A DNA stretch of 64,000 nucleotides, from positions 102,674,001-102,738,000 of the forward strand of contig NC_086097.1 of assembly GCF_963921235.1 (NCBI RefSeq), read 5' to 3'. A program made the position numbers and the translations under genes. Below, piece by piece: positions 6,303 through 64,000 of the stretch. The DNA comes from Mobula hypostoma (lineage: Eukaryota). Below the pieces are notes generated by a model. It saw only the letters and a program-made list of their open reading frames with translations, searched no databases and was not told where the DNA came from. The stretch's first letter is position 1. Every line of letters begins with the position of its first letter.

Positions 6303-7071
6303 CAATAACTGGGGGACTCAGGCATGTGCTTGGTTGTTGATACCTGAGAACCAGGCTAAATGTAAATGGAGGGAAAGTGGGGAAAAGGAGATGGGGGCAA
6401 AAAGCAAATAGGAAGGAGAGTGGTAGCTAACATAAAATGAAACCAAAATGTCTGTGCTGCATGTATTTAAATAATAAGACATGGAGAATGGAGCCATTTG
6501 GGGAGCAAGATGGGTGCCTACTCATGGAGGAAAAGGACTTGACTGAGGTATTAAATGATTACCTTGTAATTGATGTTAACAGGGTGGTGATGCTGTAATC
6601 ATAGTTTTAAAACAAAAGTTTTACTAAAACATAGGAAAGTACAGAAACAGGCCTTCTCACCCATGGTGCCAGTCTAAACTAATCCTATCTGCCTGCACGT
6701 GGCTGATACCTCCATTCGCATGTGTCCGTCTGAATGTGTCATTCCACCACTTCCCTTGGCAGTGCATTCCAGGCACCTACTATTCTGTATTTAAAAAGAA
6801 CTTGCCTCATTAAACTCCTTTAAACTTTTCCACCTGAAACCTTAAATCTATGCTATCTGTTGTTTAACATTTCCTCATTGGGGGAAACTCTATCATATCT
6901 CTGCCTCATATAATTTTATCTGTCAGGTCTCCCCTTTGCCTCCAGTTCAGAAAAAATAATCCAAGTTTGAACAGCCTCTCCTTGTAGCTAATACTCTGTA
7001 ATCCAGAGAACATCCCAGTGAAGCTCTTTTACTCCTTTTTCAAAGTTTCCACCTCCTCCTTTAGAGTGGGT

Positions 7072-7320
7072 GCCACAGTACTGTAGTAGTTAGTGCAATT
7101 ACGGCTTGGGGTATTCCAGAGTTTGGAGTTCAGTTCCAGCGCTGTTCTGTAAGAGATCTCTGGATGTCCTCTCCATTGAGTACGTGCAGTGCTTTGGTTT
7201 CCTCACACAGTCCAAAGGTGTGCCAGGTCAGTCAGTTGGTCATTGTAAATTGTCCTGTGATTAGGCTAGTGTAAATCAGAGTTGTGGGGTTGCTGGGCAG
7301 CTTGGCTCAGAAGGCCAGAA
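7072..7320 (+). mobile_element. tRNA-derived SINE, degraded
   Basis: A-box-like tgtagtagttag and B-box-like ggagttcagttcc, then a ggtttcctc-cacagtccaaag core shared with other SINE copies here. Confidence 0.6.
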
Positions 7321-8062
7321 TTGCTATTTTATTTTATTGCTATTTTATTACTCCAAAAGTGATCTAACTAAAGTTTCACACAACTGCAAAAATCGTTAAA
7401 GAACAACTTTCTGAAAAGGCTGGTAAGCATAAAGTTCACTCACACAGGATGGGAAGTAGGAGAGAGGCCCCCAGGGCTGGAGAACTGCTAATAAAATGCC
7501 CTTGTACGACAAAAGGAACTGGAGAAGGAACAGAGGGAAATCAGACAGGGAGCAGCACTGTGTTGCAACTAGTAGAGCTCTGCCATTCAACTCCACTGAA
7601 TGGGGTTCAATGCTGCTGTCTGTAAGGGTCTCCATGTGACTGTATTTCCTCTGCATGCTAGTTTCTTTCCATATCCCAAGGATGTGCTTAGGATATTACT
7701 AGATCAATTGGTCAACATAACTCACTCTCTTACAGCTGAGTGGTAGAATCCGGGGAAATATTGATAGGAATTTGGGATAAATAAGAATGAGATGCATGGG
7801 ATGTAATGTCAATGGCTAAAATAAATCTTCAAATCTCCTATGTCTTACCCTAAATCTTTATTCTGCACTGAGGGGAAAAGAAGTTTCTTATTGCCCTCTT
7901 CACCACTCTTTATCTTAGTAATTTCTTCCAGCACTGGAAACCTCTAATTATACTTTAATCATTCCACCCATGGTATCTATGCCTTTACCTGCTTCTGAAT
8001 TAAAACTTTCTCATGAAGACCTCAATGATGAGTTACTATGTTGCAAGAACCACAATAACTTA

Positions 8063-11000
8063 AGACCATAAGACATAGCAGTAGAATTAGGCCCATTGAG
8101 TCTGCTCTGCCATTCCATCTTGGCTAATTTATTATCCCTCTCAAACCGATTCTCCTTCCTTCTCCCCACCCTGACTAATCAGAACCTATCAATCTTTGCT
8201 TCAAATATACCCAATGTCTTAGCCTTCACAGCCTTCTGTGGCAGTGAATTCCACGGATTCACTACCCTCTGGCTAAAGAAATTCCTCCTCATTTCTGTTC
8301 CAAATGGACATCCTTCAATTCTGAGGCTGTGCTATCTGATTTGAGACGTCCCCTACAACCTCTCCATATCCACTCTAATTAGGTCATTCAATATTTGATA
8401 GGTTTCAGTGAGATCCCCTCCCCCACATTCTTCTGAGCTCCAGCAGGTACAGCTCCAGAGCCAATGAATGCTCCTCATACGTTAACACTTCAGTTCTTGG
8501 AATCATTCTTGTGAACCTACTCTGGACCACCTCCAATGCGAGCACATCTTTTAGATAAGGGACCCAAACTTGCTTACAATACTCACAAGTGTGGTCTGAC
8601 CAATATCTTTATAAACTTTCAGCATTACGTCCTTGCTTTTATATTTCTGTCCTCTCAAAATCAATGCGATCATTACATTTGTCATCTTCACCATTATAAC
8701 CTGCATGGTTAGAGTATTGGCTGATTGGTGTAAGGGAGTGAGTGGGAATAAAAGGATCCTTTTCTGGTTGGCTGCCAGTAACTAGTGGTGTTCTGCAGGG
8801 AGCCTCAATATCACATCCTGTCTCTTATATTACATACCTCTAGAAATGAATGCCAATGTTGCATTCACCTTCTTCACCACCGACTCAACCTGGAGATTAA
8901 CCTTTAGGGTATCCTGCAGAAGGACTCCCAAGTCCCTTTGCATCTCTGTATTTTGAATTCTCTCCCCATCGAAATAATAGTCTGCGCATTTATTTCTTCC
9001 ACCAAAGTGCATGACCGTATACTTTGCAACATTGTACTTCATTTGCCACTTCTTTGCTCATTCCCTTAAACTATCTAAGTCCCTCTGCAGGCTCTCTGTT
9101 TCCTTGACACTACCCGCTCCTGCACCTACCTTTGTATCATCAGCAAATTTAGCCACAAATCCATTAATACTGTCGTCCAAATCATTGGCCTACATCGTAA
9201 AAAGCAGCAGTCCCAACACCAACCCCTGTGGAACTCCGCTGGTAACCAGCAGCCAGCCAGAATAGGATCACTCTATTCTCACTCTCCGTTTTCTGCTGAC
9301 CAGCCAATGCTCCACCCATGCTAGTAACTTCCCTGTAATTCCATGGGCTCTTATCTTGCTAAGCAGCCTCATATGCGGCACCTTGTCAAAGGCCTTCTGA
9401 AAATCCAAGTACACCACATCTACTGCATCTCCTTTGTCTACCCTGCTTGTAATTTCCTCAAAAAATTGCAATAGGTTTGTCGGGCAGGATTTTCCATTCA
9501 GGAAACTATGCTGGCTTTGGCCTATCTTGTCATGTGCCTCCAGATACTCCATAATCTCACCCCCAACAATCGATTCCAACCACTTCCCAACCACTGATGT
9601 CATGCTAGCAGGTCTATAGTTTCCTTTCTGCTGCCTCCCACCCTTCTTAATAGCAGGATAACATTTGCAATTTTCCAGTCATCCGGTACAATGTCACTAT
9701 CTATCAATTCTTGAAACGTCATCATTAATGCCTCCACAATCTCTCCTGCTACTTCCTTCAGAACCCAAGGAGATTTATACACCCTCAGACCATTAAGTTT
9801 CCTGAGCACTTTCTCCGTTGTAATTTTCACTGCACATACTTCACTTCCCTGACACTCTTGAACGTCTGGTATACTGCAGATATCTTCCACTGTGAAGACT
9901 GGTGCAAAATACGCATTCAGTTCCTCTGCTATCTCTGCGTCTCTCTTTACAATATCTCCAGCGTAATTTTCTATTGGTGTTAATGACCACCTTGGTTTCC
10001 TTCTGCAAGTTTTTAACATCTTCCCAATTGCCTATCTTCCCATTGGCTCTGCCTTCCTTGTATGCCCTCTCTTTTGCTTTTACTTTGGCTCTAACTTACT
10101 TGTCAACCATGGTAGTATCCTCCTTCCATTCGAAAATTTCTTATTTGGAATATATCTGTCTTACATATTCCTCATTTTTCGCAGAAACTCCAGCCATTGC
10201 TGCTCTGCTGTCCTTCCTGCTAGTGTCCCTTTCCAGTCAACTTTGGCCAGTTTCCCTCTCATGCCATTGAAATTTCCTTTATTCCACTGAAATACCGACA
10301 CTTTGGAATTTAGTTTCTCCTCCTCAAATTTCAAAGTGAACTCAGTCATATTGTGATCATTGTTTCCTAAGGGTTCTTTAACCTTAAGTTCTCTTATCAC
10401 CTCCGGATCATTCCACAACACCCAATCAGCACAGCCAATCCCATAGTGGGCTCAATAACAAACTGTTCTAAAAAAGCCATCCCTTAGGCATTCTACAAAT
10501 TCTCTCTCTTGAGGTCCAGTTCTGGCCTGGTTTTCCTAATCCAATTTCTTGTTAAAATTCCTAATGATTATCATGACATTGCCCTTCTGACATGCCTTTT
10601 CTATCTCCTGCTGTAATTTGTAATCCATGTCCCAGCTGCTGTTTGGAGGCCTGTATTCAACTGCCATTAGGGTCCTTTTACCCTTGCCATAGAGACTGTA
10701 CACCTTCCGATCCTACGTCAACCAATAGGTTTCAATGCAGTCACCCCTCATTCTTCTGAATACAGGCTCAGAGCCAACATAGGACAAGCCATTCAATATG
10801 GAAACACTTTCATGAAACCCTTTAAATCTTCTTCAGTTTCAGCACATCAGTTCTAAGATAAGGGCCCAAAACCACTCTCAATACCCCAAGTGAGGCCTCA
10901 CCAGTGTTTTGTAAAGTCTCAACATTACATCCTTGATTTTATATTGTAGCCCTTTTGAAATGAATGATAACATTGCATTTGCCTTCCTCACCACAGACTC

Positions 11001-13620: not shown

Positions 13621-13805
13621 TCAATCCAAAATGACATTTGGTCACTGGTGAAAGCTGTTTTTCACTGTAGCAACCCACAGCTGGCTTTTCTACTTGGTCT
13701 ATGGATCTGAGTGAAACCCCCTTTTCTCAAAACTTCCGATGTCAGGATTGATCGGTGGTCAAAGATCTTTAGTGACATCGTGTCCCAAGTAAATGGAGGG
13801 AATGG

Positions 13806-13974
13806 GCAGCATCTGTGAAAAAGATCGGTCGATGTTTCAGGTCGGAACCTTTCATCAGGTTCCGGCCCGAAATGTCGACCGATCTTTTCCACAGATGCTG
13901 CTTGACCTGCTGAGTTCCTCCAGCGTGTTGTGAGTGTTGCTTTGACCCCAGCATCTGCAGATTATTTTGTGTTT
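13806..13974. repeat. Penelope terminal-repeat derivative forming an inverted repeat, with degenerate hammerhead core
   Basis: gcagcatctgtgaaaaagatcggtcga ... tcgaccgatcttttccacagatgctgc arms; minus strand reads CTGATGA-aaggttccgacct-GAAAcATC. Confidence 0.7.
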
Positions 13975-14085
13975 AAATGGAGGGAATCCCAGCTATTTTC
14001 TCAATTAGTTTTTGTTCTTTAAGATTGGTCCCAAATAAACAACTGCCCTGAATAACCAATGTTCCAATGAACTGGAATCCACCGT
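13975..14085. mobile_element. Right-end fragment of a Tigger/pogo-like element
   Basis: agggaatcccagcta...tcccaaataa...ggaatccaccgTA matches the right end of the element at 29545-30565. Confidence 0.7.
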
Positions 14086-32777: not shown

Positions 32778-32883
32778 CAACACACATCAAAGTTGCTGGT
32801 GAACGCAGCCTGCCTGGCCTGCTGCGTTCACCAGCAACTTTGATGTGTGTTGCTTGAATTTCCAGCATCTGCAGAATTCCTGT
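32778..32883 (+). mobile_element. 106-bp Penelope terminal-repeat insertion with 5' inversion (hairpin)
   Basis: 14-bp TSD tgaatgtttgcact (32764-77, 32884-97); perfect 32-bp inverted repeat 32778-32809 / 32821-32852. Confidence 0.85.
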
Positions 32884-34971
32884 TGAATGTTTGCACTGAT
32901 ATGCCATTATATTCCTTTCAGATCACAGAATCAGAATTGTACCCCACGTAAATTGACCTTTTGGGCCTACCTCCTCATACCATCCATAATGCCTATAAGA
33001 TCTATTCTCATTTACCCACATCAGGCCCATATCCTCCTTCTCTCTCAAATCCCACTCAAAGTGCCTATCAAGTGCCTTTTAAGTTTTGCAGAGGTACCTG
33101 CCTCCACAACTACTTCTGTGAGCTCATACCAGAAATTATGACTTGCTGTGTTTTTGAAAAAAAACTTGCCCCTCAGATCTTTAAATTTCTCCCATCTCAT
33201 CTTAAAACGTTAGTTTTGGAATACCCTGTCCTGGCAGAAAAACTGATCATCTATCCTATCTATGTAATTTGTAAACCTCTATAAAGTTAGCCTTCAGCCT
33301 CATACACTGTAGTAAGAATAAGGCCAGCCTATCCAATCTCTCATTTTACCTCTAACCCTTCATTTCAGACAACATACTGGTGAAGAGGTGTGGCAATGAG
33401 ATAGCCTAAGTGCTCTGCATTAAAGCATTACTTTTGACATACAGTCTCTATGCTCCTTTTGGAAATACAACAGCTAATTTGTACCCAGCAATTTCCTATA
33501 AGTGATGATTTAATAATTTTCTTAAGAATTGGTAGCAACATTGGAGATAACTTAGCTCTTTAGAAGTAGTGACAGGAGAGTTTTTATGTGTCCCTAAGAG
33601 AGCAAATGATAGGTTGATTTAACATCTGAATGATAACATCGCTGTAGTAAGCTGTTGGGGTATCAGCTGAGAATATTGTGAAATCTCTGGAGTGGAACTG
33701 GAATCTACAATGGACTATCAGCTGATTGCTGACACAGTTAAGATGCAAGAATCAAGTACATTTTTTCCATATGGTACAGTTTTTGAAATTACTGCAATAG
33801 TGTGAATTTGGTGTGTTTGATTAAAATTTCCTGCTAAAATAAGGATTGTGACATTTGGGAGCAGGAACTTACAGGAGAAATTAAGGAAGCAGCCGCTGCT
33901 GAAGTCTCTCTGTGGCACTGATAAGTGTGGAATCTGATTTCCTCAAAGAAAATTAACATAGAGTTGAAACGATCTTTATTGACTTCATTTATTTTAGTGT
34001 TTGGTTATGTTTAAAGTAATTAATAGTTTATCTTATTATGGGCTTTGTCTCTCTCAGTCATAATTGTTCACTTTGGGTGAAGGGACTTGCTGTTGCTTCA
34101 ACAATTACTGCAAACCTGCCACTGAGGGACCATCATTAGAAATATGGAAAATCTGTGGTCAAATAGCGCTGTTTGTAACATTGCCATGTGTTTGTATTCA
34201 CATTGAAACAACACCAAGCTTTTGGAAGGAATTTGTATTCGATTTGGTTTGGATCATAATACAGAATTGCTCCAGATTTTAATTCAATTGTTTTAGTTAA
34301 ACTTAGTGATGTACCAAATCAGTTGTCATTGCTATTGTTCAGGAATGTTTGACCAAAAGCAACTGAGATTGATTTAAATTTTTGGTTCCATCTATTACCC
34401 ATCTAACAACATCTAATTTCTATATGTCATGCATTCCAAGTGAAGGTGCTTTCTGAGGGGATTTGAAATCATTGGTTTTAGACTGTGCATTTATTTAGTA
34501 TTGACAAAAACTAAATTTGTTTGCTTATTGCTTACTTATTTACTTATTGCTTTGTTCATTTCCAGTATTGTTTACCTTTATTACAGCTTTCTTCAGGATA
34601 TCTATTGACACAAAACCAAACACATTGCCTATAATAGGGTGGGGAAAAACTGATCAAAATCAAGATCCTTTATCAGATAAGGGATTAAATGGTTATGGAT
34701 CCATATTTTCACATAGTTTAATTGCACCTAGAAAACTCTTTCATCTCATATAATGGCTGCTGAGGAGTGAAACACCCTAAATCTGTGATCAGTTGTATTC
34801 CACTGGATATGTCTGACAATCTATTTGAAGCAAAGATTTGAGCTTCACATCACCCATAATATGACTTATTGACAGGTAACTGGGTGACTGTCAGGAGAGG
34901 GAAGGGGAATAGACAGAAAGAGCAGAGCACCCCTGTGGCCGTTCCCATCAACAATAAGTATACTGTTTTGG

Positions 34972-36313: not shown

Positions 36314-37428
36314 CAAACAACAGGAATACTGCAGATGCTGGAAATTCAAGCAACACACATCAAAGTTGCTGGTGAACGCAGCAGGCCAGGCAGCATCTCT
36401 AGGAAGAGGTGCAGTCGACGTTTCAGGCCGAGACCCTTCGTCAGGACTAACTGAAGGAAGAGTGAGTAAGGGATTTAAAAGTTGGAGGGGGAGGGGGAGA
36501 TGCAAAATGATAGGAGAAGACAGGAGGGGGAGGGATAGAGCCAAGAGCTGGACAGGTGATAGGGGATACGAGAGGATCATGGGACAGGAGGTCCGGGAAG
36601 AAAGACAAGGGAGGGGGGGACCCAGAGGATGGGCAAGAGGTATATTCAGAGGGACAGAGGGAGAAAAAGGAGAGTGAGAGAAAGAATGTGTGCATAAAAA
36701 TAAGTAACAGATGGGGTACGAGGGGGAGGTGGGGCCTTAGCGGAAGTGGGGCCTTAGCGGAAGTTAGAGAAGTCGATGTTCATGCCATCAGGTTGGAGGC
36801 TACCCAGACGGAATATAAGGTGTTGTTCCTCCAACCTGAGTGTGGCTTCATCTTTACAGTAGAGGAGGCCGTGGATAGACATGTCAGAATGGGAATAGGA
36901 TGTGGAATTAAAATGTGTGGCCACTGGGAGATCCTGCTTTCTCTGGCGGACAGAGCGTAGATGTTCAGCAAAGCGGTCTCCCAGTCTGCGTCGGGTCTCG
37001 CCAATATATAAAAGGTCACATCGGGAGCACCGGACGCAGTATATCACCCCAGTCGACTCACAGGTGAAGTGTTGCCTCACCTGGAAAGACTGTTTGGGGC
37101 CCTGAATGGTGGTAAGGGAGGAAGTGTAAGGGCATGTGTAGCACTTGTTCCGCTTACACGGATAAGTGCCAGGAGGGAGATCAGTGGGGAGGGATGTGGG
37201 GGACGAATGGACAAGGGAGTTGTGTAGGGAGCGATCCCTGCGGAATGCAAAGAGAGGGGGGGAGGGAAAGATGTGCTTAGTGGTGGAATCCCGTTGGAGG
37301 TGGCGGAAGTTACGGAGAATAATATGTTGGACCCGGAGGCTGGTGGGGTGGTAGGTGAGGACCAGGGGAACCCTATTCCTAGTGGGGTGGTGGGAGGATG
37401 GAGTGAGAGCAGATGTACGTGAAATGGG
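36314..37428 (-). mobile_element. Penelope-like element, 5'-truncated (GIY-YIG endonuclease plus terminal repeat)
   Basis: ORF 36754..37080 FTCES.GVIYCVRC.RC.LLYIGET.RRL..RF.EH...EEQHLIF.LG...P.GMN; host CR1 resumes at gggcaggtttgc. Confidence 0.92.
36413..36448 (-). ncRNA. Minimal type-I hammerhead ribozyme motif
   Basis: Minus strand AGUC-CUGACGA-AGGGUCUCGGCCU-GAAAC-GUC-GACU: stem I AGUC/GACU, conserved core, stem II AGG/CCU, palindromic ACGU stem III, GUC cleavage triplet. Confidence 0.85.
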
Positions 37429-38277
37429 GGGCAGGTTTGCCGGAGCTGTTGGGGAGGGTTTAAACTAGTTTGGCAGGGGAGTGGGAATCAGAATGTGAGT
37501 GCAGGGATTAGGGTAGAAGGACAAGGGCATGATGCTGTGTATTCTGAGTTGGTGAGGAAAGACAGGCAGGGGACAAAACATAAATGTAGCCAGTTAGAGG
37601 GGTTGAAACGTGTCTATTTCAACGCTAGGAGTATTGGAAATAAAGGGGATGAACTTGGAGCATGGATCAGTACAGTACATGGAACTACGATGTTGTGGCC
37701 ATTACTGAAACTTGGCTGGAGGAAGGGCAGGATTGGCTGATGCAGGTACCGGGGTTTTAAAAGGAATAGGATGGGAGGTGGGGGGTGGGCAGTAGTATTA
37801 CTGGTCAGGGATAGTATCATGGCTATAGAAAGGGAGGACGCTGCAGAGGGAGTGTCCACTGAGTCGTGTGGGTGGAAGTCAGAAATAAGGAGGGATCAAT
37901 CACTGTGCTGGGAGTAGTCTATAGGCCCCCAAATAGCCCTCGGGACACCGAGGAGCAGATAAGCAGCCTGACTTTAGAATGGTGCAGGAATTACAAGGTT
38001 GTAGTTATGGGTGATTTTAACTTACTTCATATTGACTGGCACCTCCTGACTGCAAGGGGGATAGATGGGGCTGAATCTGTCAGGTGTGTTCAAGCAGGAT
38101 TCCTGACACAGTACGTGGACCGGCCGACGAGAGGAGAGGCCATACTGGATCTAGTTCTGGGTAATGAACCTGGTCAGGTGGCAGACTTCTTGAGGGAGCA
38201 TTTTGGTGAGAGTGACCACAACTCCCTCAGCTTCAGCATAGCTATGGAAAAGGATAAAAACAGACATTGGGGACATT

Positions 38278-45330: not shown

Positions 45331-45854
45331 CCATAAGATATAGGAGCAGAATTAGGCCATTTGGCCCATTGAGTCTGCTTCACCATTCAATCATGGCTGA
45401 TCCTTTTTCCGCTCCTCAGCCGCATTCTTGGCCTTCTCCCTTTAGCCTTTGATACCGTGTCCAATTAAGAACCTAGCAATCTCTGCCTTAAATACACCCA
45501 GCGACCTGGCCTTCAGCTGCCTATGGTAACAGAAACCACAAATCCACCACACTCTGGCCAAAGAAATTTTTCTGCATCTGTTTTAATAGGACACCCCTCT
45601 CTCCAGAGGCTGTGCCCTCTTGTCCTGGTCTCCCCCACCATGGGAAACATCCTTTCCACATCTACTATATTTAGGCCTTTCAACATTAGAAAGGTTTCAA
45701 TGAGCTCCTTCCCCCCCCACCCCCATCCTTCTAAATTCCAATGAATACAGACTCAGAGCTATCAAACGTTCCTTGTAAGATATCCATTTCATTCCCATAA
45801 TCATCCTTGTGAATCTCATCTGAACCCTGTCCAATGCCAACACATTTTTTCTTA

Positions 45855-46727
45855 GCAACACACATCAAAGTTGCTGGTGAACGCAGCAGGCCAGGCAGCA
45901 TCTGTAGGAAGAGGTGCAGTCGACGTTTCAGGCCGAGACCCTTCGTCAGGACTAACTGAAGGAACAGTGAGTAAGGGATTTGAAAGTAGGAGGGGGAGGG
46001 GGAGATCCAAAATGATAGGAGAAGACAGGAGGGGGAGGGATAGAGCCAAGAGCTGGACAGGTGATAGGCAAAAGGGGATACGAGAGGATCATGGGACAGG
46101 AGGTCCGGGAAGAAAGACAAGGGGGGGGGGGACCCAGAGCATGGGCAAGAGGTATATTCAGAGGGACAGAGGGAGAAAAAGGAGAGTGAGAGAAAGAATG
46201 TGTGCATAAAAATAAGTAACAGATGGGGTACGAGGGGGAGGTGGGGCCTTAGCGGAAGTTAGAGAAGTCGATGTTCATGCCTTCAGGTTGGAGGCTACCC
46301 AGACAGAATATAAGGTGTTGTTCCTCCAACCTGAGTGTGGCTTCATCTTTACAGTAGAGGAGGCCGTGGATAGACATGTCAGAATGGGAATGGGATGTGG
46401 AATTAAAATGTGTGGCCACTGGGAGATCCTGCTTTCTCTGGCGGACAGAGCGTAGATGTTCAGCAAAGCGGTCTCCCAGTCTGCGTCGGGTCTCGCCGAT
46501 ATATAAAAGGCCACATCGGGAGCACCGGACGCAGTATATCACCTCAGTCGACTCACCTGGAAGGACTGTTTGGGGCCCTGAATGGTGGTAAGGGAGGAAG
46601 TGTAAGGGCATGTGTAGCACTTGTTCCGCTTACACGGATAAGTGCCAGGAGGGAGATCAGTGGGGAGGGATGGGGGGGGGACGAATGGACAAGGGAGTTG
46701 CGTAGGGAGCGATCCCTGCGGAATGCG
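45855..46727 (-). mobile_element. Penelope-like element, second copy (GIY-YIG plus terminal repeat)
   Basis: ORF 46249..46620 VIYCVRCSRCGLLYIGET...; nearly identical to 36349-37248. Confidence 0.92.
45918..45953 (-). ncRNA. Minimal type-I hammerhead ribozyme motif
   Basis: Identical 36-mer to 36413-36448. Confidence 0.85.
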
Positions 46728-55639: not shown

Positions 55640-57875
55640 ACTACTGGAAGGAAAAATTGATATTAATGTCATCAGGTTAGAGCCTACTAACCATTCAGGA
55701 ATGACTGCCTCCATTCAGGGCTTCACCTGCAAATCTGTTAGGGTCATCTTTGACCATAAGACATAGCAGAATTAGGCCATTCAGCCCATTGAGTCTGCCC
55801 TACCATTTCATCATGGCTGATCCTGGATCCCATTCAACCCTATATACCTTCCCTCTCACATATCCCTTGAAACCCCAACCAATCAGGAATCTATCAACTT
55901 CTGCTCTAAATATACCCATGGACTTGCCTTCCACTGCAGTCTGTGGCAGAGCATTCCACATATTCACTACTCTTTGGCTTAAAAAACATTCCTCCTTACT
56001 TCTGTTCTAAAGGATCACCCCTGTGCCCCCTAGTTCTGGATACCCCCACCATAGGAAACATCCTCTCCACATCCACCTTATCTAGTCCTTTCAACATTCG
56101 GTAGGTTTCAGTGCATTTTCCTAGATTCCAGTGAGTACAGGCCCAAAGCTGCCAAACGCTCCTCATATGTTAACCCATTCATTCAGAATCATCCTCTTGA
56201 ACCTCCCCTGGGCTCTCTCCAATGACAATGCATCCTTTCTGACACAAAACTGCTGACAGTATTCCAAGTGCAGCCTGACTAGTGTCTTATAAAGCTTCAG
56301 CATTATCTCCTTGTTTTTGTATTCTGTTCCCCTTGAAATAAATGCCAACATTGCATTTGCCTTCGTTACGAGACTCAACTTGTAAATTAACCTTCTCGGA
56401 GTCTTCCACGAGCTCTCCCAACTCCCTCTGCACCTCTGATGTTTGAACCTTCTCCCCATTTAGAGTCCACACTATTGTTCCTTTTACCAAAATGCATTAT
56501 CATACATTTCCCAACATGGTATTCCATTTGCCACATTTTTGTCCATTCTTCCAATTTGTCTAAGCCCTGCTGCAATTGCATTGCTTCCTCAGCACTACCT
56601 ACCCCTCCACCTACCTTCGTATCATCTGGAAACTTTGCAACAAAGCTATCAATTCCACTATCTAAATCATTGACAAGCATTATGAAAAGTAGTTGCCCCA
56701 ATACTGACCCTTGAGGAACACCACTAGTCACTGGCAGGCAACCAGATAAGGCCCCTTTTATTCCCACTCACTACCTCCTGCCTGTCAGCCATTCCTCTAT
56801 CCATGCCAGTATCTGTCCTGTAACACCATAGGATTTTATCTTGTTAAGCAGCCTCATGTATGGCATCTTACCAAATGCCTTCTGAAAATCTAACAAAATG
56901 ACATCCACTGCCTCTCTTTTGTCCATCCTGCTTATTACTTCCTCGAAGAATTCTAACAGATCTCAGGCAAGATTTCCCTTTACAGAAACCATGCTGACTT
57001 TGACATTATTTCATTAGTCACCAAATACCCCAAAACATCATCCTTAATAATGTTCTCTTAACACTTTCCCAACCACTGAGGTTAGGCTAACTGGCCTATA
57101 ATTTCCATGCTTTTGTCTTCCTGTGGAGTGGCATTTGCAATTTTTCAGTCCTCCAGGACTATGCCAGGATTAAGTGATTCTTGAAAGATCATGCATGACC
57201 AATGTATCCATTATCTCTTCAGCAACCTCTCTCAGGAGTCTGGGATGTAACTGTTGTATCCGGTGCTCCCGATGTAGCCTCCTGTGCATTGTTGAGACCC
57301 AGTGTAAATTGGGGGACTGCTTTGTTCAGCACCTCTGCTCCATTCCTAAAATGCAGAATTTTCATTCCTCTCCCCATCCCATTCCAACATGTCAGTCCAT
57401 AGCCGCTTGTTTTGTCATGATGAGGCCACTCTCAAGGGACAACACCTCATATTTTGTCTTTGTTGCCTCCAACCTGTACTACATCAATTTCAGCTTTCAG
57501 TAATTTTTGTTTCTCTTTTTTCTTCTCCCCTCTCCCTCCTCTTCTATTCCCTACTCAGGTCTTTTACAACTTCTCTTCAGCTGCCTTTCACCCCCCCCCC
57601 CCCGCCCAGTCCCCTCTTCTTCCCTTTCTCTTGTGGTCCACTTCCTTCTCTTATCAGATTCCTACTTTTCCAGCGCTTTACCTTTCCCACCTATATGGCC
57701 TTATCTATCATCTTCTAGCTTTCACTCCATCTCCTCACCCACCTTTTTATCCTGGCTTCTTCCCAATTCCTTTCCAATCCTGATAAAGGATCTCAGCCTG
57801 AAATGTCGACTATTTATTCATTTTCGTAGATGCTGCCTGACCTGCTGAATTCCTTCAGCATTTTGTGTGTTTAGC
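55640..57875 (+). mobile_element. Old Penelope-like element split by a minus-strand CR1 (about 55751-57250)
   Basis: FTCKSVRVI at about 55722-55749 continues as CIRCSRCSLLCIVET after 57250; terminal repeat with decayed hammerhead at 57776-57811. Confidence 0.75.
55751..57250 (-). mobile_element. CR1 fragment (RT and 3' UTR)
   Basis: SGVPQGSVLG...KFPDDTKVGG (56387..56767); (ccataaga) tail. Confidence 0.87.
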
Positions 57876-60191
57876 ACATAGCAGCCCTTCCGTTCTCTTT
57901 GATAGGTCAGTCTCACTCTTAATTCATTAACTCTGTTCTTAATGGCCTGGAACACAGATCATTACAGTGTAATACAGGCCCTTTGGCCCACGATGTTGTA
58001 CAGACCTTTAACCTACTCTTAGATTAAAACCCTTCCCTCCATTTTTCCCTACAATAGCCCGCCATTTTTTTTTATCATTCCAGTTAGTTTAGCTGGTAGT
58101 ATGCTGGAGAAGGAGAACTTGTTTGAACCTCAGCTGCAGCCCAGCCCTCTTACCGCACTTTCAAGATAAGTGACCACCTCTGGTTGGTCCTGAAATGGAA
58201 CCATCTGGGCTGGAAGGTAAATGACTGCTGAAGGGCAGACCTGGGCTGGATTAAGCTCGGCTGTCAGATTCACATACAGGCCTGAAAGACCAGCTGAGGA
58301 GTGAGCTGTCCCACCAGTTAAGTTGGGGGCATCTCCGGGAGCCTTGGCATCAGGACTTGGCTCTGGGTGCTTTAGACTTGTTGGGGCGTCGGCATCAGGC
58401 GCCTCTGCAGGTCAGGAATTCAGTCAGGTCAGACCTCAGGGCATGGCCCCTGCTGCTAACTGAAGCACTGTACTTCATTCATGAAGTCACTGGCAGCAAC
58501 AGGCATCCTTTCTTTTAAGCTCTCTGTCTCTGAATCAGACACAATCCTTTAAGAGGTGACAACATTAATTATTGTGCATGAGCTGATTTTATAAAAAGCC
58601 ACAGAGAGTGCGCTCTAAAATTGAATATCTCTAGAGCTGCAGTCCTCCCTAGTGTTTGCCGAGAATGAAACTATAGTCACAGCATGCAACACGGTCATAG
58701 ATTCTGTCTGTTGTAAGTTCTGCTCTTCTCCTTTTAACATGGCATTATACTTTTGGATTGTATCTTTCTACTTTATGTCCAAGATCTGTACCACTGTATT
58801 TCTGTTCTTTCATTCCAGCTATAAGAATTAACTTAGTGGAACAGGGAGTAACTATACTTTGTGAAGGAGATATTCCACTGTCTTAATCTCTAATTCTTGT
58901 TCCACAAGCATTATTTATTGGGTTTAAATTACAAGTCCTCACAAAATTGTGAGATCCCGACATGTACAGTGTATACATCTGAATGAGCACTTAGGAGGCC
59001 GATAGGATGGATTTGCCAGCTGCTGCTGAGCTACAGGTTTCTTCTACTGTGTGGGACCTCAGATTATGGCAATATATAAATAGTTGGGTTGAACTCTCTG
59101 GTTTAACTGCTTGTTACCCTTGGTTGGCCTATGTTCTTATTTAACTACATTGCCAGCAGCCAAACTGTTTGGGTTAGAACTTTTCTCAGAAGTGGAAGCT
59201 GTGGTAACTTTGGGAGGACATGTATTCACAGTGCATAAAATGGATGGCAGAAACTTGATATCCTGGGTGGAATAGGTATTTGGCAGAGAGTGAGAATGGT
59301 GTGCTAAAGAAAAGCCGCAATTTCTACTGTCTTTACTTGAAGAATACAATGCAATGGAAGTCTGGAGTCCATAAAAAATGAGATTAAGTTGAGCAGATGT
59401 TGTCATCTGCAATATATGCCTTGGAAGGATAGAGAATTGAAGGGGAAAAATGTCACAGGTAGGAATTTCACAGAGGCAGTAGGAGTACATTTGAGTGGTG
59501 TAGCAAGGTATTCAAAGTCGAGTTTATTGTCATACGTACAAGTATGTGTGTGCACAGGTAGAGTGACAAACTTATATGTAGTAGCATCATGAGAAAAACA
59601 TTAATTGTATACAACTTCTAAAGAGCAGAATTAAAACCAAAAAAATCAAGTCCATTTTAGTGCACGGCCATCTTAATGGTCATACTGTTGCTAAACTGCA
59701 GTGATTAGGTTGTACCAGTTGGTTGAACAGCCAAATGTTTGAAGTGAAATAGCTGTTCTTAAAACTTACTGTATGGAACTTCTGGTTTCTGTAGGAGAGA
59801 AGATGGCATGGCTGAACTGGTGGGTATCTTTAATGATGGATTCTGTTACTCTTGAGGCAGCGCCTTCTGTAGATAATATTCATGTAGGGAGAGATGTATT
59901 GATTCTCATCTCAAGCTGACTTAAGCTGGTTAATCTTCATGTACCTGGAGGTTTGTAACATGAGCTCTGGTTACTGTGAAATATTTTCAGTCATTCAAGC
60001 CATAATTTCATTCCAATCATATTTGTCACTCACTCCCAATGGTGGTGGTCCTGACGTGGATAATGTTAAGGTTCTGCTTAATGATAGGGATGCTGAGTCG
60101 GCTCACAAATCATATTTTGTACATATAAATCTAAAGCCCACATGTTCCAGTAGTCAGTCACAACATTTAGATTTTTTTTTGCCATTTCTAG

Positions 60192-60344
60192 ATGTTTTGG
60201 ATCTATGCAGAACCCAACACGCAACCGGGTTCATGTTGAACTTCCTTTTGGTCTGGAAGATGGAGAGTACCTCTGCCCTTTGTGCAAGACTCTTTGTAAT
60301 ACTGTCATCCCAGTCATTCCACTGCAAGCACACAGTCTAGACAG
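60192..60344 (+). CDS. UBR1: UBR1 coding exon 9, RING end ([50 protein letters not shown])
   Basis: ttctag| acceptor, |gtatgt donor; 153 nt. [17 protein letters not shown] fits UBR1 better than recalled UBR2 (GEFLCPLCECLSNTVIP). Confidence 0.95.
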
Positions 60345-60435
60345 GTATGTTTGTTAGCAATCTAATTCTTCATTGCATGTATAAAAGCTTATGTGGGAAA
60401 TAGATTGGTGTTTGAACTGTCCACTGGTCATATAT

Positions 60436-60471
60436 AGTCCTGACGAAGGGTCTCAGCCTGAAACGTCGACT
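60436..60471 (+). ncRNA. Minimal type-I hammerhead ribozyme motif, sense to the UBR1 pre-mRNA
   Basis: AGUC-CUGACGA-AGGGUCUCAGCCU-GAAAC-GUC-GACU; predicted cleavage after 60467. Confidence 0.85.
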
Positions 60472-60570
60472 GCACCCCTTCCTACAGATGCTGCCTGGCC
60501 TGCTGCGTTCACCAGCAACTTTTATGTGTGTTGTTTGAATTTCCAGCATCTGCAGAATTCCTGTTGTTTG
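60437..60570 (+). mobile_element. 134-bp solo Penelope terminal-repeat insertion carrying a hammerhead
   Basis: 15-bp TSD cactggtcatatata (60422-36, 60571-85); near-perfect reverse complement of 36314-36447. Confidence 0.9.
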
Positions 60571-60965
60571 CACTGGTCATATATATTTTGTTTCCAACAT
60601 CTGTAGTTAATTGCTTTTCAATTAATAACCTCACTACTGTTGATTTTTTTAAAAATTAAAAATATGTTCAAAAGGTGTTTCCACTTTCCCACTTAAATCT
60701 TTTGATCTGTTTTTTTATTTTATCCTGGCTTCCTTGCTTGTTACCCTGATCTATTCCTATCTGTGCTCTATTCCAGAGGCCTGTCACTGACATTCCAATA
60801 CTGCACTCTCAAAACTGTCAATTAGGTTCAGCTGAGATAAGTTTAAACCAAGTGGAATGCAAATCTAGTATTGGAAAGACAACCAAATAACCAGCTTCAC
60901 AGTTTTAGAAAATGTAAATAGTATGAGAATTCTCTTCATAACGTTCAATCTGTTGTGTATTGCAG

Positions 60966-61063
60966 CAAAGATATCGAAGCAATAGCACCTACACTCACAA
61001 TATCTCGCTGGCTAGAAAATGTCTCAGCAAGAATTATGGGATTGAATGCTTCGGGCACAAAAG
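60966..61063 (+). CDS. UBR1: UBR1 coding exon 10 (SKDIEAIAPTLTISRWLENVSARIMGLNASGTKG)
   Basis: ttgcag| acceptor, |gtacgt donor; 98 nt, in phase with exon 9. Resembles UBR1 [26 protein letters not shown]. Confidence 0.9.
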
Positions 61064-61321
61064 GTACGTATGTGAGGGAAATTGATTTTAATCAGAAAGG
61101 TTATGTTTGGAAAGCAATCCAGACACAGTCTGATATCTGATCAGAAAAAATTACTCAGTGTGAGGTAAGAATTTGGCATTCTGGTGCTTGATTAGAGCTT
61201 TGGAGGAATGTGGTGGGAGTGAGAAGAGAAGAGAGTTGTCAGGCATCAGCTGCCCACTGTCAAATGCTGATGATCATCACAGTGTACATGAGTGACATAC
61301 AAAAGTGATGAGTGACATTCT

Positions 61322-63367
61322 TACTTCAGTGGTTGATAAGTTGATGGAGAAGATCCTGAGAGGCAGAATTTTTGAACATTTGGAGAGGTATAATATAATT
61401 AGGAATAGTCAGCATGGCTCTGTCAAGGGCAGGCCGTGCCTTACGAGCCTGATTGAATTTTTTGAGGATGTGACTAAACACATTGATGAAGGAAGAGCAG
61501 TAGATGTAGTGTATATGGATTTCAGCAAGGCATTTGATAAGGTACCCCATGCCAGGCTTATTGAGAAAGTAAGGAGGTATGGGATCCAAGGGGACATTGC
61601 TTTATGGATCCAGAACTGGCTTGCCCACAGAAGGCAAAGAGTGGTTGTAGACGGGTCATATTCTGCATGGAGGTCGGTCACCAGTGGAGTGCCTCAGGGA
61701 TCTTCTGGGACCCTTACTCTTCGTGATTTTTATAAAAGACTTGGATGAGGAAGTGAAGGGATGGGTTAGTAAGTTTGCTGATGACACAAAGGTTGGGGGT
61801 GTTGTTGATAGTGTAGAGGGCTGTCAGAGGTTACAGCGGGACATTGATAGGATGCAAAACTGAGCTGAGAAGTGGCAGATGGGATTCAACCTGGATAAGT
61901 GTGAAGTGGTTCATTTAGGGAGGTCAAATATGATGGCAGAATATAGTATTAATGGTAAGACTCTTGGCAGTATGGAGGATCAGAGGGATCTTGGGGTCCC
62001 GAGTCCATAGGACGCTCAAAGCAGGTGTGCAGGTTGACTCTGTGGTTAAGAAGGTGTACGGTGTATTGGCCTTCATCAATTGTGGAATTGAATTTAGGAG
62101 CCGAGAGGTAATGTTGCAGCTATATATGACGCTGGTCAGACCCCACTTGGAGTACTGTGCTCAGTTCTGGTTGCCTCACTGCAGGAAGGATGTGGAAACT
62201 GTAGAAAGTGTGCAGAGGAGATTTACAAGGATGTTGCCTAGATTGGGGAGCATGTCTTATGAAAACAGGTTGAGTGAACTTGGCCTTTTCTCCTTGGAGC
62301 AACAGAGGATGCGAGGTGACCTGATAGAGGTGCAGAAGATGATGAGAGGCATTGATCGTGTTGATAGTCAGAGGCTTTTTCCCAGGGCTGAAATGGCTGC
62401 CGCAAGAGGGCACAGGTTTAAGGTGCTGGGGAGTCGGTACAGAGGAGATGTCAGGGGTAAATTTTTTTTACTTAGGAAGTGGTAAGTGCATGGAATGGGC
62501 TGCCGGCAACGGTGGTAGAGGCGGATATGATGGGGTCTTTTAAGAGACTTTTGGATAGGTACATGGCGCTTAGAAAAACAGAGGGCTATGGGTAACCATA
62601 GCAGACATCCCACCCTGCAAAAACTCATTTCAGGGAGGTAGCACTATCAATTTGCAGGAGACTCCCGGAACTTTCGGGAGAGGTGGAATGTCTGCAATAG
62701 AGTAGCTCCTGAGCAGCTAGCCAGCTAGTTTAAATAATGTTAGCTATGCTAATGAACGAATGATACCTGTTAAACTCACCTCAACATGTCTTTACAGTCT
62801 TAACCCACCACGGGCAATAGAAGAGTCACTGTTGCAAACAGCGCAGCGAGCAACACTGTCATTATTTTGACCCCTATTAGGCAGGGGTACACTTTAGTGT
62901 AGTCTGGGTGACGTACGTTTTATATTTTCTTTTTTTGGAACACTCTGCCATGGTGCGCGCTCGCTCGTGCTCTCGCTTGCTTTCTCTCTCGCTTTCCCGC
63001 TCGCTCGCTCTCGTGGTCACTCACGCGCTCTTTCGCGCTCTCGCTTTCCCTCCCGTTCGTGCGCTCTCACTTGCTTTCTCTCTCATGCGCACACTTTCTG
63101 TCTCGTGGTTACTCTCACACTCTCTCTTGCTTTCTCTCACACTCTCTCTTGCTTTCTCTCTCTCACTCGCTCTCAAAAAAATTGATTTCTGTGATATTGT
63201 ATATAATTTGCGGGCATCAGGGAGCCACTATTAATATGCGGGAGACTCCTGGAACTTCCAGGAGAGGTGGGATGTCTGCCATAGTAATTTCTAAGGTAGG
63301 GACATGTTCAGCACAACTTTATGGGCTGAAAGGCCTGTATTGTGCTGTAGGTTTTCTGTGTTTTCTA
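61322..63367 (+). mobile_element. 5'-truncated CR1 with a DNA element inserted near its 3' end
   Basis: YMDFSKAFDKVPH, KFADD and RPHLEYCAQFW fragments; the 3' UTR resumes after 63284. Confidence 0.9.
62602..63278. mobile_element. Non-autonomous TIR element (hAT-like MITE, 677 bp)
   Basis: 13-bp TIR cagacatcccacc / ggtgggatgtctg and 6-bp TSD ccatag (62596-601, 63279-84); internal CT/GC-rich simple repeat at about 62955-63175. Confidence 0.85.
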
Positions 63368-63374
63368 AAAGTGG

Positions 63375-63595
63375 GTGTATTAGGGTTGCACAGTTAATGC
63401 ACGGCTATTACATAGCCAGCAGTCTAGGTTTAATTTTGCTGCTGCCTGGACATTCTTCCCTTGCCCGTGTGGGTTTTCTCCGGGTGCTCGTTTCCTTCCA
63501 CAAAGACATACGCGTTAGTAGGTTAATTGATTCAATAGGTGTAATTGGGTGTCACAGGCTCATTGGGCCAGAAGGGCTGTATTTCTAAATAAAAT
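63375..63595 (+). mobile_element. tRNA-derived SINE, degraded
   Basis: Core gtgggttttctccgggtgctc-gtttccttccacaaagac and a CR1-like 3' end gggccagaagggc. Confidence 0.6.
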
Positions 63596-64000
63596 TTAGA
63601 AATACTTGAAAAGCAAGATACCATTGATGCTGAAAACCCAAAACAAAAACAAAATGATGGAAATGTATAGCTTTGGGATTATAGTAAAACTTAGACAATT
63701 TTCCATCCCATTGTTGGGGATCTTGCCGATTTGGCACGTTTCCCACGTTCCCTTTAAACTCGTGGTGGAGTGGGAGGAATGCTTCCAATACTTCCTTAAA
63801 ACTCGCAGGGGAGAGGGAGGAACGTTTCCCACACACTTCAAACTCATGGAAGAAGGGAATGTCTGCTGCATGCACTTTAAAGATTGTTTGCATAAAAATT
63901 GTGTGATTGAAAGTACATTGAAATATTAAGAAGAATACTGTCCAATAGACCACAAAATCTACAAGCTCAGCATGCCCAAAATCCAGAGTGATGCATGTTT

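What the first reader, a model, noticed from the sequence alone, without database searches (positions are those of the whole stretch)
60422..60585. Free-standing 134-bp hammerhead-ribozyme retroposon in sense orientation in a short UBR1 intron
Seen: a 134-bp insertion bounded by a perfect 15-bp TSD (cactggtcatatata). It begins at a complete minimal hammerhead (stem I AGUC/GACU, whose first A is the last TSD base; CUGACGA; stem II AGG/CCU; GAAA; palindromic ACGU stem III; GUC site) and has no coding sequence. It lies 92 nt after the donor of the RING exon 60192-60344, in a 621-nt intron, on the transcribed strand. Known: Penelope-like elements carry minimal hammerheads that are thought to cleave mainly as dimers. 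Inference: every UBR1 pre-mRNA from this allele contains a potential self-cleaving site. The unit may be a SINE-like ribozyme element moved in trans by Penelope, or a copy truncated where reverse transcription met the ribozyme fold. Because the whole ribozyme was copied, the template RNA was uncleaved.
Basis: partly seen in the sequence, partly recalled or inferred. Interest (0 to 1): 0.82.

Follow-up and report, generated by a model that had tools for sequence, protein, structure and literature searches.

The report
Truncated Penelope element end, UBR1 intron
The 134-base insert is the broken-off tail end of a very abundant Penelope-like jumping gene carrying that family's usual small hammerhead motif; it sits in a UBR1 intron that is still spliced out normally, so it is ordinary, although many copies of this family begin at exactly the same base.

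Summary
A 134-bp insert (60437-60570) lies between perfect 15-bp direct repeats. It starts with a complete minimal hammerhead motif and sits in sense in a 621-nt UBR1 intron.

It is not a free-standing element. It is the 3' end of a Penelope-like element (PLE: reverse transcriptase plus GIY-YIG endonuclease). At least 46,383 such 3' ends are in this genome.

The family shows the published PLE signatures:
- 5' truncation
- head-to-head inverted arms
- a 35-nt "tail"
- TSDs of 11-17 bp

Short and long copies share the same polymorphisms, so there is no separate SINE lineage.

5' ends are not random: 15 of 100 unbiased copies start within 3 nt of the first hammerhead base, 43 start at -50..+10, and only 2 start at -249..-51. 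I read this as the 5' end of a PLE RNA (inferred, about 40%).

The intron is spliced out in all four runs laid. The lone motif is predicted to fold into an inactive hairpin. Published tests found no monomer cleavage.

Earlier notes of this scan describe the same family and, in another genome, the same 5' clustering.

The parts
60422..60436 (.). Left copy of the target-site duplication (CACTGGTCATATATA). The last 1-2 bases (TA) could also be element bases -2/-1.
   Evidence: 100% repeat; parent has TA before GTCC
60437..60570 (+). 134-bp insert, equal to the last 134 nt (+1..+134) of a Penelope-like element. 5'-truncated, non-coding.
   Evidence: 96-98% identical copies; 23 of 30 continue upstream
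60436..60471 (+). Minimal type-I hammerhead motif: stem I AGUC/GACU, core CUGACGA, stem II AGG/CCU with a 7-nt loop, GAAA, palindromic ACGU in place of helix III.
   Evidence: sequence; 3 in window against 0.01 expected; activity not testable here
60467..60468 (+). Predicted hammerhead scissile bond (after C17 of GUC).
   Evidence: Position follows from the hammerhead consensus (PMC4209133, text read). No cleavage data.
60536..60570 (+). 35-nt 'tail' (+100..+134), present at the 3' end of the direct copy. Inverted arms of the family mostly lack it: 41 of 48 end at +86..+107.
   Evidence: tail concept from PMC8557442 and PMC11167929
60571..60585 (.). Right copy of the target-site duplication.
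60192..60344 (+). UBR1 exon upstream of the insert (residues 1174-1223 of a 1751-aa UBR1).
60345..60965 (+). 621-nt UBR1 intron holding the insert (472 nt before the insertion). Removed by GT..AG splicing.
   Evidence: joint 60341->60963, cut +3, in 4 of 4 runs
60966..61063 (+). Next UBR1 exon.

Best explanation
The insert is a dead-on-arrival, 5'-truncated retro-insertion of a very abundant endonuclease-bearing Penelope-like element (PLE).

Mechanism:
1. The PLE GIY-YIG endonuclease made staggered nicks about 15 bp apart in the UBR1 intron, which gives the TSD. Inferred from the TSD and from published PLE biochemistry.
2. The PLE reverse transcriptase started at the distal of the family's two start sites, which gives the 35-nt tail. 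Shown as family structure; the start-site mechanism is by analogy with PAc.
3. It copied an uncleaved RNA through the hammerhead and stopped at the first hammerhead base.

That stop is a family-wide preferred end. I think it most likely marks the 5' end of a PLE transcript that starts in the pseudo-LTR just at the hammerhead, so that the 134-mer is a run-off copy (inferred, about 40%). The alternative is enzyme arrest or template switching there (about 30%).

The copy has no promoter region and no ORF, so it cannot move again. In UBR1 pre-mRNA it is a passive intronic passenger. The lone minimal hammerhead needs a partner copy, and probably PLE protein, to cut. The intron is spliced normally.
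For: Identity:
- The 134-mer has many 96-98% copies. 23 of 30 continue upstream into conserved sequence.
- Long copies carry an ORF that ends about 300 nt before the hammerhead and has GIY...YIG motifs. Pfam GIY-YIG scores 19.9 and 21.9 bits.
- 115 longer relatives of 640-1358 aa were found. Most list RVT_1 and 18 list GIY-YIG. P0007 has RVT_1 at 291-479 and GIY-YIG at 708-751.
- Family copy L042 aligns to residues 72-533 of P0054 at 74% identity, across its RVT_1 domain.
- YIDD is read in 6 long copies.

Abundance:
- The 26-mer at +105..+130 has 46,383 hits and 0 in the reversed control.
- The hammerhead tile has 122,976 hits.

PLE insertion signatures in 100 unbiased copies:
- 48 have an adjacent inverted arm.
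- 41 of those 48 arms end at +86..+107, so they lack the tail.
- 47 of 65 short copies have TSDs of 11-17 bp that flank the whole unit.

5' ends:
- 15 of 100 lie at -3..+3, with binomial P=3.5e-7 within -50..+60.
- 43 lie at -50..+10 and only 2 at -249..-51.
- Genome-wide, the -13..+13 tile has 89,267 hits against 122,976 for the +1..+26 tile.

No separate lineage: 9 polymorphic columns all give Fisher p>=0.13, comparing 37 short with 33 long copies.

Inertness:
- Spliced joint in 4 of 4 runs.
- Monomer MFE hairpin -10.7 against -5.3 kcal/mol for the hammerhead-like fold.
- No monomer cleavage of minimal hammerheads (PMC4209133, text read).
- PAc hammerhead cuts only with protein, and cleavage is not needed for insertion (PMC11167929, main text read).
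Against: - I could not read a full-length master. Whether +1..+134 sits as a leader before the ORF is unknown.
- The family's own ORF scores just under Pfam's GIY-YIG cut-off (19.9 and 21.9 against 22.6 bits).
- The sharp 5' pile-up means this is not simple random truncation. Short RNAs moved in trans remain possible.
- There are no RNA 5'-end data: no raw-read RNA run was offered, and contigs cannot show starts.
- The base before +1 is A, not a pyrimidine, so +1 is not a textbook initiator.
- Stem II closes with A-U (or has an extra U before G12) instead of the G10.1-C11.1 pair said to be highly conserved. Activity is therefore uncertain even as a dimer.
Confidence: 0.88

Rival explanations
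1. The 134-nt unit is a discrete non-autonomous element (SINE-like or retrozyme-like). It would be transcribed on its own and moved in trans by the Penelope enzyme, so this copy would be a full-length member and not a truncation.
For: - A sharp, recurrent 5' end at the first hammerhead base.
- 8 solo copies start exactly at G(+1) next to unrelated flank: 6 of the unbiased 100, plus the window copy and L013.
- A scan note reports 134-nt units in another genome (e1-7858391, unchecked).
- A preprint argues that animal retrozymes derive from PLE pseudo-LTRs (10.64898/2026.07.22.740005, abstract and Results read).
Against: - Short and long copies share the same polymorphisms at the same frequencies.
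- The unit is identical in sequence to the end of RT/GIY-YIG copies.
- 5' ends also scatter from -30 to +10 and beyond.
- The copy has no upstream promoter region and no tandem repeat at this locus. No tRNA, 7SL or 5S match in the insert in the Rfam scan.
Confidence: 0.07
2. The preferred 5' end is made by the reverse transcriptase and not by the RNA. The enzyme stalls, falls off or switches template at the hammerhead region because of its fold, a dimer partner or bound PLE protein. This is.
For: - A smaller cluster of ends at +30..+37 (6 of 100, two of them duplicates of one locus) lies at the 3' base of the predicted hairpin.
- Inverted arms also end at -3..+3 (12 of 48), and several junctions use the AGTC stem-I microhomology (205 sites genome-wide).
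- PAc protein binds RNA near this region (PMC11167929).
Against: - An obstacle should stop the enzyme on its 3' side (about +36). The main peak is at the far, 5' edge (+1), after the fold has been copied.
- The shoulder lies upstream (-30..-4: 19 copies), which fits scattered start sites better than arrest.
- PAc showed no such stop in vitro in the text I read.
Confidence: 0.3
3. The intronic hammerhead is functional in its host. It self-cleaves UBR1 pre-mRNA and lowers or regulates UBR1 output from this allele.
For: - The core nucleotides are intact and in sense on the transcribed strand.
- Partner hammerhead RNAs could be plentiful, because the family is very abundant in the contigs of the four runs laid (summed depth only).
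Against: - The spliced exon-exon joint is present in 4 of 4 runs.
- It is the only intact sense copy in the 64-kb window. The two others lie on the minus strand and the plus-strand relative at 57778 has a decayed core.
- The monomer is predicted to fold into an inactive hairpin.
- Published minimal hammerheads are inactive as monomers and weak as dimers (PMC4209133; PMC6765202, passages).
- It is one of more than 120,000 such motifs.
Confidence: 0.03

Closest known systems
Minimal hammerheads (min-HHR) in the pseudo-LTRs of metazoan Penelope-like elements (Cervera & de la Pena 2014, PMC4209133; whole main text read)
   Same: - Type-I core CUGANGA...GAAA.
- Short helix I (4-5 bp).
- No helix III loop, but a palindromic 15.2-16.2 (ACGU), which implies dimer action.
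- Thousands of single motifs per genome, attributed to truncated PLEs.
- Pairs on opposite strands 100-700 bp apart.
   Different: - Helix II here is only 3 bp with a 7-nt loop. The paper describes 6-8 bp.
- Helix II closes with A-U (or needs an extra U before G12) instead of G10.1-C11.1.
- The copy number here (about 123,000 motif hits) is far above the 4,000-9,000 quoted for coelacanth and Xenopus.
Poseidon PLE of Anolis carolinensis, PAc (Frangieh et al. 2024, PMC11167929; main text read)
   Same: - Reverse transcription starts at two adjacent internal sites. The 30-40-nt 'tail' is the stretch between them. Here the ends lie at about +99 and +134.
- Both DNA strands are cut and extended, which fits the head-to-head arms inside one TSD.
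- The hammerhead lies about 70-100 nt upstream of the start sites.
- Uncleaved RNA is the main template.
   Different: - In PAc the ORF starts inside the hammerhead. Here no ORF start is seen in +1..+134, and the stop codon of the preceding ORF is about 300 nt upstream.
- A preferred 5' end at the hammerhead edge is not mentioned in the text I read.
Canonical EN+ PLE insertion architecture (Craig et al. 2021, PMC8557442; passages read)
   Same: High 5' truncation, an adjacent inverted 5'-truncated copy, a 30-40-bp tail at one end, and the hammerhead in the pseudo-LTR.
   Different: This locus is the simplest form: a solo direct arm with no inverted arm and no tandem partner.
Animal non-LTR retrozymes (Cervera & de la Pena 2020, PMC7229834, search listing only; Li et al. 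2026 preprint 10.64898/2026.07.22.740005, abstract and Results read)
   Same: Small non-coding hammerhead-bearing sequences related to PLE pseudo-LTRs. 'Monomer' derivatives are dispersed, including in introns.
   Different: - Retrozymes are tandem repeats whose unit ends at the hammerhead cut site and which circularise.
- This insert is a single copy with a TSD. It runs from the hammerhead's 5' edge to the RT start site and is sequence-identical to the autonomous element's end.

Membership tests
Endonuclease-bearing Penelope-like element (parent family of the insert) | Reverse transcriptase domain in the single ORF | tested here: met
   - L042 aligns to residues 72-533 of P0054 at 74% identity. 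P0054 has RVT_1 at 285-467, 32.9 bits against a cut-off of 29.6.
- YIDD is read by eye in 6 long copies.
Endonuclease-bearing Penelope-like element (parent family of the insert) | C-terminal GIY-YIG endonuclease | tested here: inconclusive
   - The family's own ORF scores 19.9 and 21.9 bits against a cut-off of 22.6.
- Relatives at 48-54% identity pass, for example P0007 and P0013 at 25 bits.
- GVIY...YIGET motifs are visible.
Endonuclease-bearing Penelope-like element (parent family of the insert) | Complex insertions: 5' truncation, adjacent inverted 5'-truncated copy, 30-40-bp tail at one end, TSD around the whole | tested here: met
   - 48 of 100 copies have an inverted arm.
- 41 of those 48 arms stop at +86..+107, that is without the 35-nt tail.
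- 47 of 65 short copies have TSDs of 11-17 bp.
Endonuclease-bearing Penelope-like element (parent family of the insert) | Pseudo-LTRs from partial tandem copies around a full-length ORF | not tested
Minimal PLE hammerhead (min-HHR) | Conserved core CUGANGA and GAAA, cleavage triplet NUH, helix I closing the motif | tested here: met
   Read: CUGACGA, GAAA, GUC, AGUC/GACU. 3 in the window against 0.01 expected.
Minimal PLE hammerhead (min-HHR) | Palindromic 15.2-16.2 with no helix III loop (dimer design) | tested here: met
   ACGU at 60463-60466.
Minimal PLE hammerhead (min-HHR) | [quoted passage not shown] | tested here: inconclusive
   The sequence reads GA-A-GG...CC-U-GAAA. This is either an A-U closing pair or a G-C pair with a bulged A and an extra U before G12. 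A second PLE family in the window has AGGU/ACCU, 4 bp with a UCCG loop.
Minimal PLE hammerhead (min-HHR) | Self-cleavage, as a dimer | not testable with these tools
   - Needs a bench assay.
- The nested-pair energy model cannot score the double hammerhead.
- Rfam models give no hit.
Non-LTR retrozyme | Tandem repeats of a hammerhead-bearing unit, with the unit bounded by cut sites | tested here: not met
   Single copy between TSDs, with no tandem partner at 60300-60700. The unit starts 31 nt before the cut site.
SINE-like independent lineage | Its own source genes, seen as diagnostic substitutions, and an internal promoter | tested here: not met
   No diagnostic column among 9 common polymorphisms, comparing 37 short with 33 long copies. 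No small-RNA family match in the insert.

The most novel reading that the evidence does not exclude
The first base of the hammerhead may be the true 5' end (start site) of a Penelope RNA. In that case roughly a quarter to a third of the about 120,000 hammerhead-bearing arms in this genome would be run-off 'leader' retrocopies. They would be made when the enzyme starts at its internal start sites close to the RNA's 5' end. The rare inverted arms that end exactly one base after the predicted cut (+32; 3 of 48, one with a CCC filler) would then be genomic footprints of hammerhead self-cleavage in vivo, which published work has not been able to show for these elements.
Probability: 0.35. Interest if true: 0.5.

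Novelty: new member of a known kind. Interest (0 to 1): 0.25.

Why it matters
The locus itself matters little. It is one of tens of thousands of dead Penelope ends, and UBR1 splicing is intact.

The family is more useful. Its very high copy number and young age (3-4% divergence from the majority sequence) leave a clean record of how Penelope-like elements insert:
- two reverse-transcription start sites, seen as the tail
- priming on both strands, seen as inverted arms inside one TSD
- a sharp preferred 5' end at the hammerhead edge

If that end is the RNA start, it fixes the position of the ribozyme at the very 5' end of the transcript. It would also give a simple genomic read-out of template ends, including possibly cleaved ones. 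The role of the hammerhead in these elements is still called unclear in the papers I read (PMC8557442, PMC11167929), so this bears on it.

Tried and rejected
- Rfam scan of 58000-64000 at E<=10: 7 weak hits, none a ribozyme and none in the insert. My first fixed-spacing pattern had the wrong spacer and found nothing. CTGANGA...CGAAAC also found nothing.
Fetching 6 kb upstream of 17 long copies and then 3.6 kb of 3 copies: not granted. A walk with L075:2-400 returned places but no loci. The 5' part of the element therefore stays unread.
- An apparent second boundary at -1331 was an artefact. Only L075 is truncated there.
- RNA evidence: no RNA holder was listed. The four runs laid are contigs, so no starts or ends could be seen. 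No contig joined across the insert as an empty site, and no contig covered 60372-60405.
- Intron idea: a pyrimidine tract plus CAG ends 3 nt before the hammerhead, as in D. virilis Penelope, where the intron ends at helix I (PMC4209133). I saw no plausible donor in the 250 nt upstream, so I dropped it.
- Initiator idea: TTAGTCC fits the old YYANWYY consensus (recalled) with A(-1) as the start. But only 3 of 8 exact solo copies have A before G(+1).
- Scoring the double-hammerhead dimer failed, because the pairs are not nested.
- tblastn with 7 relatives against all held DNA found N-terminal ORF pieces only from about residue 72 on (L041, L042, L056). None had a leader.
- The search of earlier findings by sequence found nothing.
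- Lunse et al. (RNA Biol) is not held. I cite it only through a review passage (PMC6765202).

Full report
**Observation**

The sequence is as described. CACTGGTCATATATA stands at 60422-60436 and again at 60571-60585, both exact. The 134 nt between them (60437-60570) begin GTCCTGACGAAGGGTCTCAGCCTGAAACGTCGACT.

With the A at 60436 this reads as a minimal type-I hammerhead:
- helix I AGUC/GACU
- core CUGACGA
- a 3-bp helix II (AGG/CCU) closing 7 nt
- GAAA
- the palindrome ACGU where helix III should be
- the GUC triplet, with the predicted cut between 60467 and 60468

The relaxed pattern CTGANGA-N8-20-GAAACGTC occurs three times in the window against 0.01 expected. Rfam's hammerhead models do not see it at E<=10. 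I take this to reflect the missing helix III loop.

**Gene context**

The gene context is also right.
- Exon 60192-60344 translates to a peptide 100% identical to residues 1174-1223 of a 1751-aa protein named E3 ubiquitin-protein ligase UBR1 isoform X1 [Mobula hypostoma].
- The intron is 60345-60965 (621 nt).
- Contigs in each of the four public runs I laid join 60341 to 60963 with GT..AG ends, the cut fitting 3 places further right.

So the intron, insert included, is removed on the plus strand, and the hammerhead lies in sense. I did not test the label 'RING exon'.

**What the insert is**

A search of the window's own genome (3.48 Gb) with the 134-mer gave 40 scored matches of 96-100% identity. 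I looked at the flanks of the 30 loci returned.
- 23 continue upstream of GTCC with the same conserved sequence (...CTCACTCTTCCTTCAGTTA). One of these does so for only about 22 nt.
- 5 have a reverse-complement copy of the same region butted head-to-head.
- 2 (the window copy and L013) abut unrelated DNA.

The 134-mer is therefore the 3' end of a longer element. I number it +1 (G of GTCC) to +134.

Long copies carry an ORF that ends about 300 nt upstream of +1. Its end reads GVIY...YIGET...LEEQHLIFRLGSLQPDGMNIDF. Pfam places GIY-YIG there at 19.9 and 21.9 bits, just under the 22.6 cut-off.

A search for longer relatives found 115 proteins, mostly 650-960 aa. Most list RVT_1 and 18 list GIY-YIG. 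In my own scan P0007 has RVT_1 at 291-479 and GIY-YIG at 708-751, and P0054 has RVT_1 at 285-467. A family copy in L042 aligns to residues 72-533 of P0054 at 74% identity. Six long copies read ...RYIDDCIG... further upstream (read by eye).

Reverse transcriptase followed by a C-terminal GIY-YIG nuclease is the architecture of endonuclease-bearing Penelope-like elements (PMC4209133, PMC11167929).

**Abundance and insertion signatures**

A 26-mer from the tail (+105..+130) has 46,383 matches with at most one mismatch, and none for the reversed control. The tool lists matches in chromosomal order. I took the first 100 places as a sample unbiased for 5' ends: 30 loci and 70 fetched.

All 100 downstream flanks are unrelated to one another, so each anchor is a true 3' terminus.
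- 48 of 100 have an inverted arm directly upstream.
- 41 of those 48 arms end at +86..+107, which means they lack the last ~35 nt.
- 47 of 65 short copies have TSDs of 11-17 bp that flank the whole unit, inverted arm included.

These are the published hallmarks of PLE insertions: high 5' truncation, an adjacent inverted truncated copy, and a 30-40-bp 'tail' at one end (PMC8557442, passages). They fit the biochemistry of the Anolis element PAc. That element nicks and extends both strands and starts reverse transcription at two adjacent internal sites, with the stretch between them forming the tail (PMC11167929, main text). The window copy, with a 15-bp TSD, a tail and no inverted arm, is the simplest variant of this pattern.

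**Discrete unit or ordinary truncation?**

The ends are clearly not random.

| 5' end of direct arm | Copies (of 100) |
|---|---|
| beyond -250 | 33 |
| -249..-51 | 2 |
| -50..+10 | 43 |
| +11..+105 | 22 |

- Within -50..+60, 15 of 58 ends fall in the six positions -3..+3 (binomial P=3.5e-7).
- Six solo copies of the sample, plus the window copy and L013, start exactly at G(+1) beside unrelated DNA.
- Twelve of 48 inverted arms also end at -3..+3.
- Genome-wide, the tile +1..+26 has 122,976 matches and the tile -13..+13 has 89,267, both with at most 2 mismatches. About 27% of hammerhead-bearing arms therefore stop within 13 nt upstream of the motif. The sample gave 36%.

Yet the short copies are not a lineage of their own. 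At all 9 common polymorphic columns of +1..+134, 37 short and 33 long copies have the same allele frequencies (all Fisher p>=0.13). Their divergence from the majority sequence is alike, 4.1% and 3.2%.

So the same source elements produce both long copies and a recurrent ~134-nt product.

**Mechanism of the preferred end (inferred)**

A fold that blocks the enzyme should stop it at the fold's 3' base. The predicted hairpin spans -1..+35, and there is indeed a small cluster at +30..+37. That cluster has 6 of 100 copies, but L036 and L078 have identical flanks and count once.

The main peak, however, is at the far edge of the motif, and the shoulder lies upstream (-30..-4, 19 copies). This fits better with cDNAs running off the 5' end of an RNA that starts at +1, with minor starts just upstream.

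In D. virilis Penelope the pseudo-LTR holds the promoter and start site, 46 bp before an intron (PMC2377424, passages). That intron's end maps to the 5' end of helix I (PMC4209133). A start close to the hammerhead is therefore plausible.

Because PLE reverse transcription starts internally (PMC11167929), an RNA starting at +1 would give a 134-nt run-off copy from the start sites nearest its 5' end.

I could not check this. The 5' part of the element is unread, and no raw-read RNA run was available. I put this reading at about 40% and enzyme arrest or template switching at about 30%.

It is not independent evidence.

**Consequences for UBR1**

- The insert is the only intact sense hammerhead in the 64-kb window. 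The copies at 36417 and 45922 are on the minus strand. The plus-strand relative at 57778 has a decayed core, CTGATAA and GAAATGTC.
- As a monomer the RNA is predicted to fold into an extended hairpin that pairs GACG of the core with CGUC: -10.7 kcal/mol against -5.3 for the hammerhead-like fold.
- Single minimal hammerheads showed no detectable cleavage, and dimers only low activity (PMC4209133).
- The PAc motif cut only with its protein, and cleavage was not needed for insertion (PMC11167929).

Together with the spliced joints, I see no reason to expect an effect.

**Comparison and novelty**

Single minimal hammerheads scattered in thousands and ascribed to truncated PLEs, including pairs on opposite strands, are in print (PMC4209133). 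The tail and the inverted arms are in print too (PMC8557442, PMC11167929).

The insert is not a retrozyme. It has no tandem repeat, and its unit is not bounded by cut sites.

What I did not find in the texts I read is the sharp 5' end at the hammerhead edge. They cover only the held library, and I did not open the supplements of these papers.

Other agents of this scan reached the same general verdict for this family in this genome (e1-7808612, e1-7812955).

**Verdict**

The locus is an ordinary, inert, truncated Penelope end. The family-wide end-phasing is a modest refinement worth a proper genome-wide histogram and RNA end mapping.

Noticed in passing
L063, L090, L095 (junctions near oriented positions 1395-1465): Three of 48 inverted arms end exactly at +32, the first base after the predicted hammerhead cut. 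L090 has a CCC filler after it. L095 joins through the 4-nt AGTC overlap with the direct arm. Poisson P is about 8e-4 for a pre-named position. This may be a footprint of cleaved RNA templates, but snap-back through the stem-I complement could give the L095 type.
   Followed up: partly
own genome, counts only: The L095-type junction (arm ending at +32 fused through AGTC to the hammerhead start) occurs at 205 sites on many contigs. The blunt palindrome +1|+1 occurs at 119 sites.
   Followed up: partly
window 36316-37430 (-), 45854-46726 (-), 32778-32885: Three more copies of the same family lie in the window. One is 1.1 kb with a tail, one is 0.9 kb ending at +99 without a tail, and one is a small inverted pair.
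   Followed up: partly
window 13800-13975 and 57778-57871: Two other, older Penelope families. One is a head-to-head pair whose hammerhead has helix II AGGU/ACCU with a UCCG loop. The other is a no-tail copy with a CpG-decayed core.
   Followed up: no
L041 1-640 and L056 2380-3026: Two loci share one rearranged form: a reverse-complement piece of the N-terminal ORF (from about residue 72 of relatives) butted against a C-terminal piece that runs to +134. This may be an amplified rearranged copy.
   Followed up: partly
L042 1515-2909 (-): The tail (+105..+134) is joined directly to RT-coding sequence (relatives' residues 72-533). The endonuclease part, the 3' UTR and the hammerhead are skipped.
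   Followed up: no
L036 and L078: Two 'independent' places have identical flanks and the same +37 start, so they are one insertion duplicated with its surroundings.
   Followed up: no
family coordinates -18..-4 (parent copies, e.g. L003): A pyrimidine tract ending in CAG lies 3 nt before the hammerhead. It recalls the D. virilis Penelope intron that ends at helix I. No donor site was seen upstream.
   Followed up: partly
family coordinates +1..+102 (window 60437-60538): Reading frame 1 is open from +1 to +99, with an ATG at +52, and hits TGA at +100-102, exactly where the tail begins. Its meaning is unknown (read).
   Followed up: no
3' junctions of L031-L130: Many insertions are followed by TTTG|CGT... 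or TTTG|CAT... and A/T-rich DNA. This suggests a target preference or a few more templated bases.
   Followed up: no
window 60406-60575 in runs X1, X2, X5, X10: Summed contig depth over the insert is 10^4-10^6, against 7-240 on the UBR1 exons. Family sequences are therefore very common in these runs' contigs. The kind of run is only guessed as RNA.
   Followed up: no
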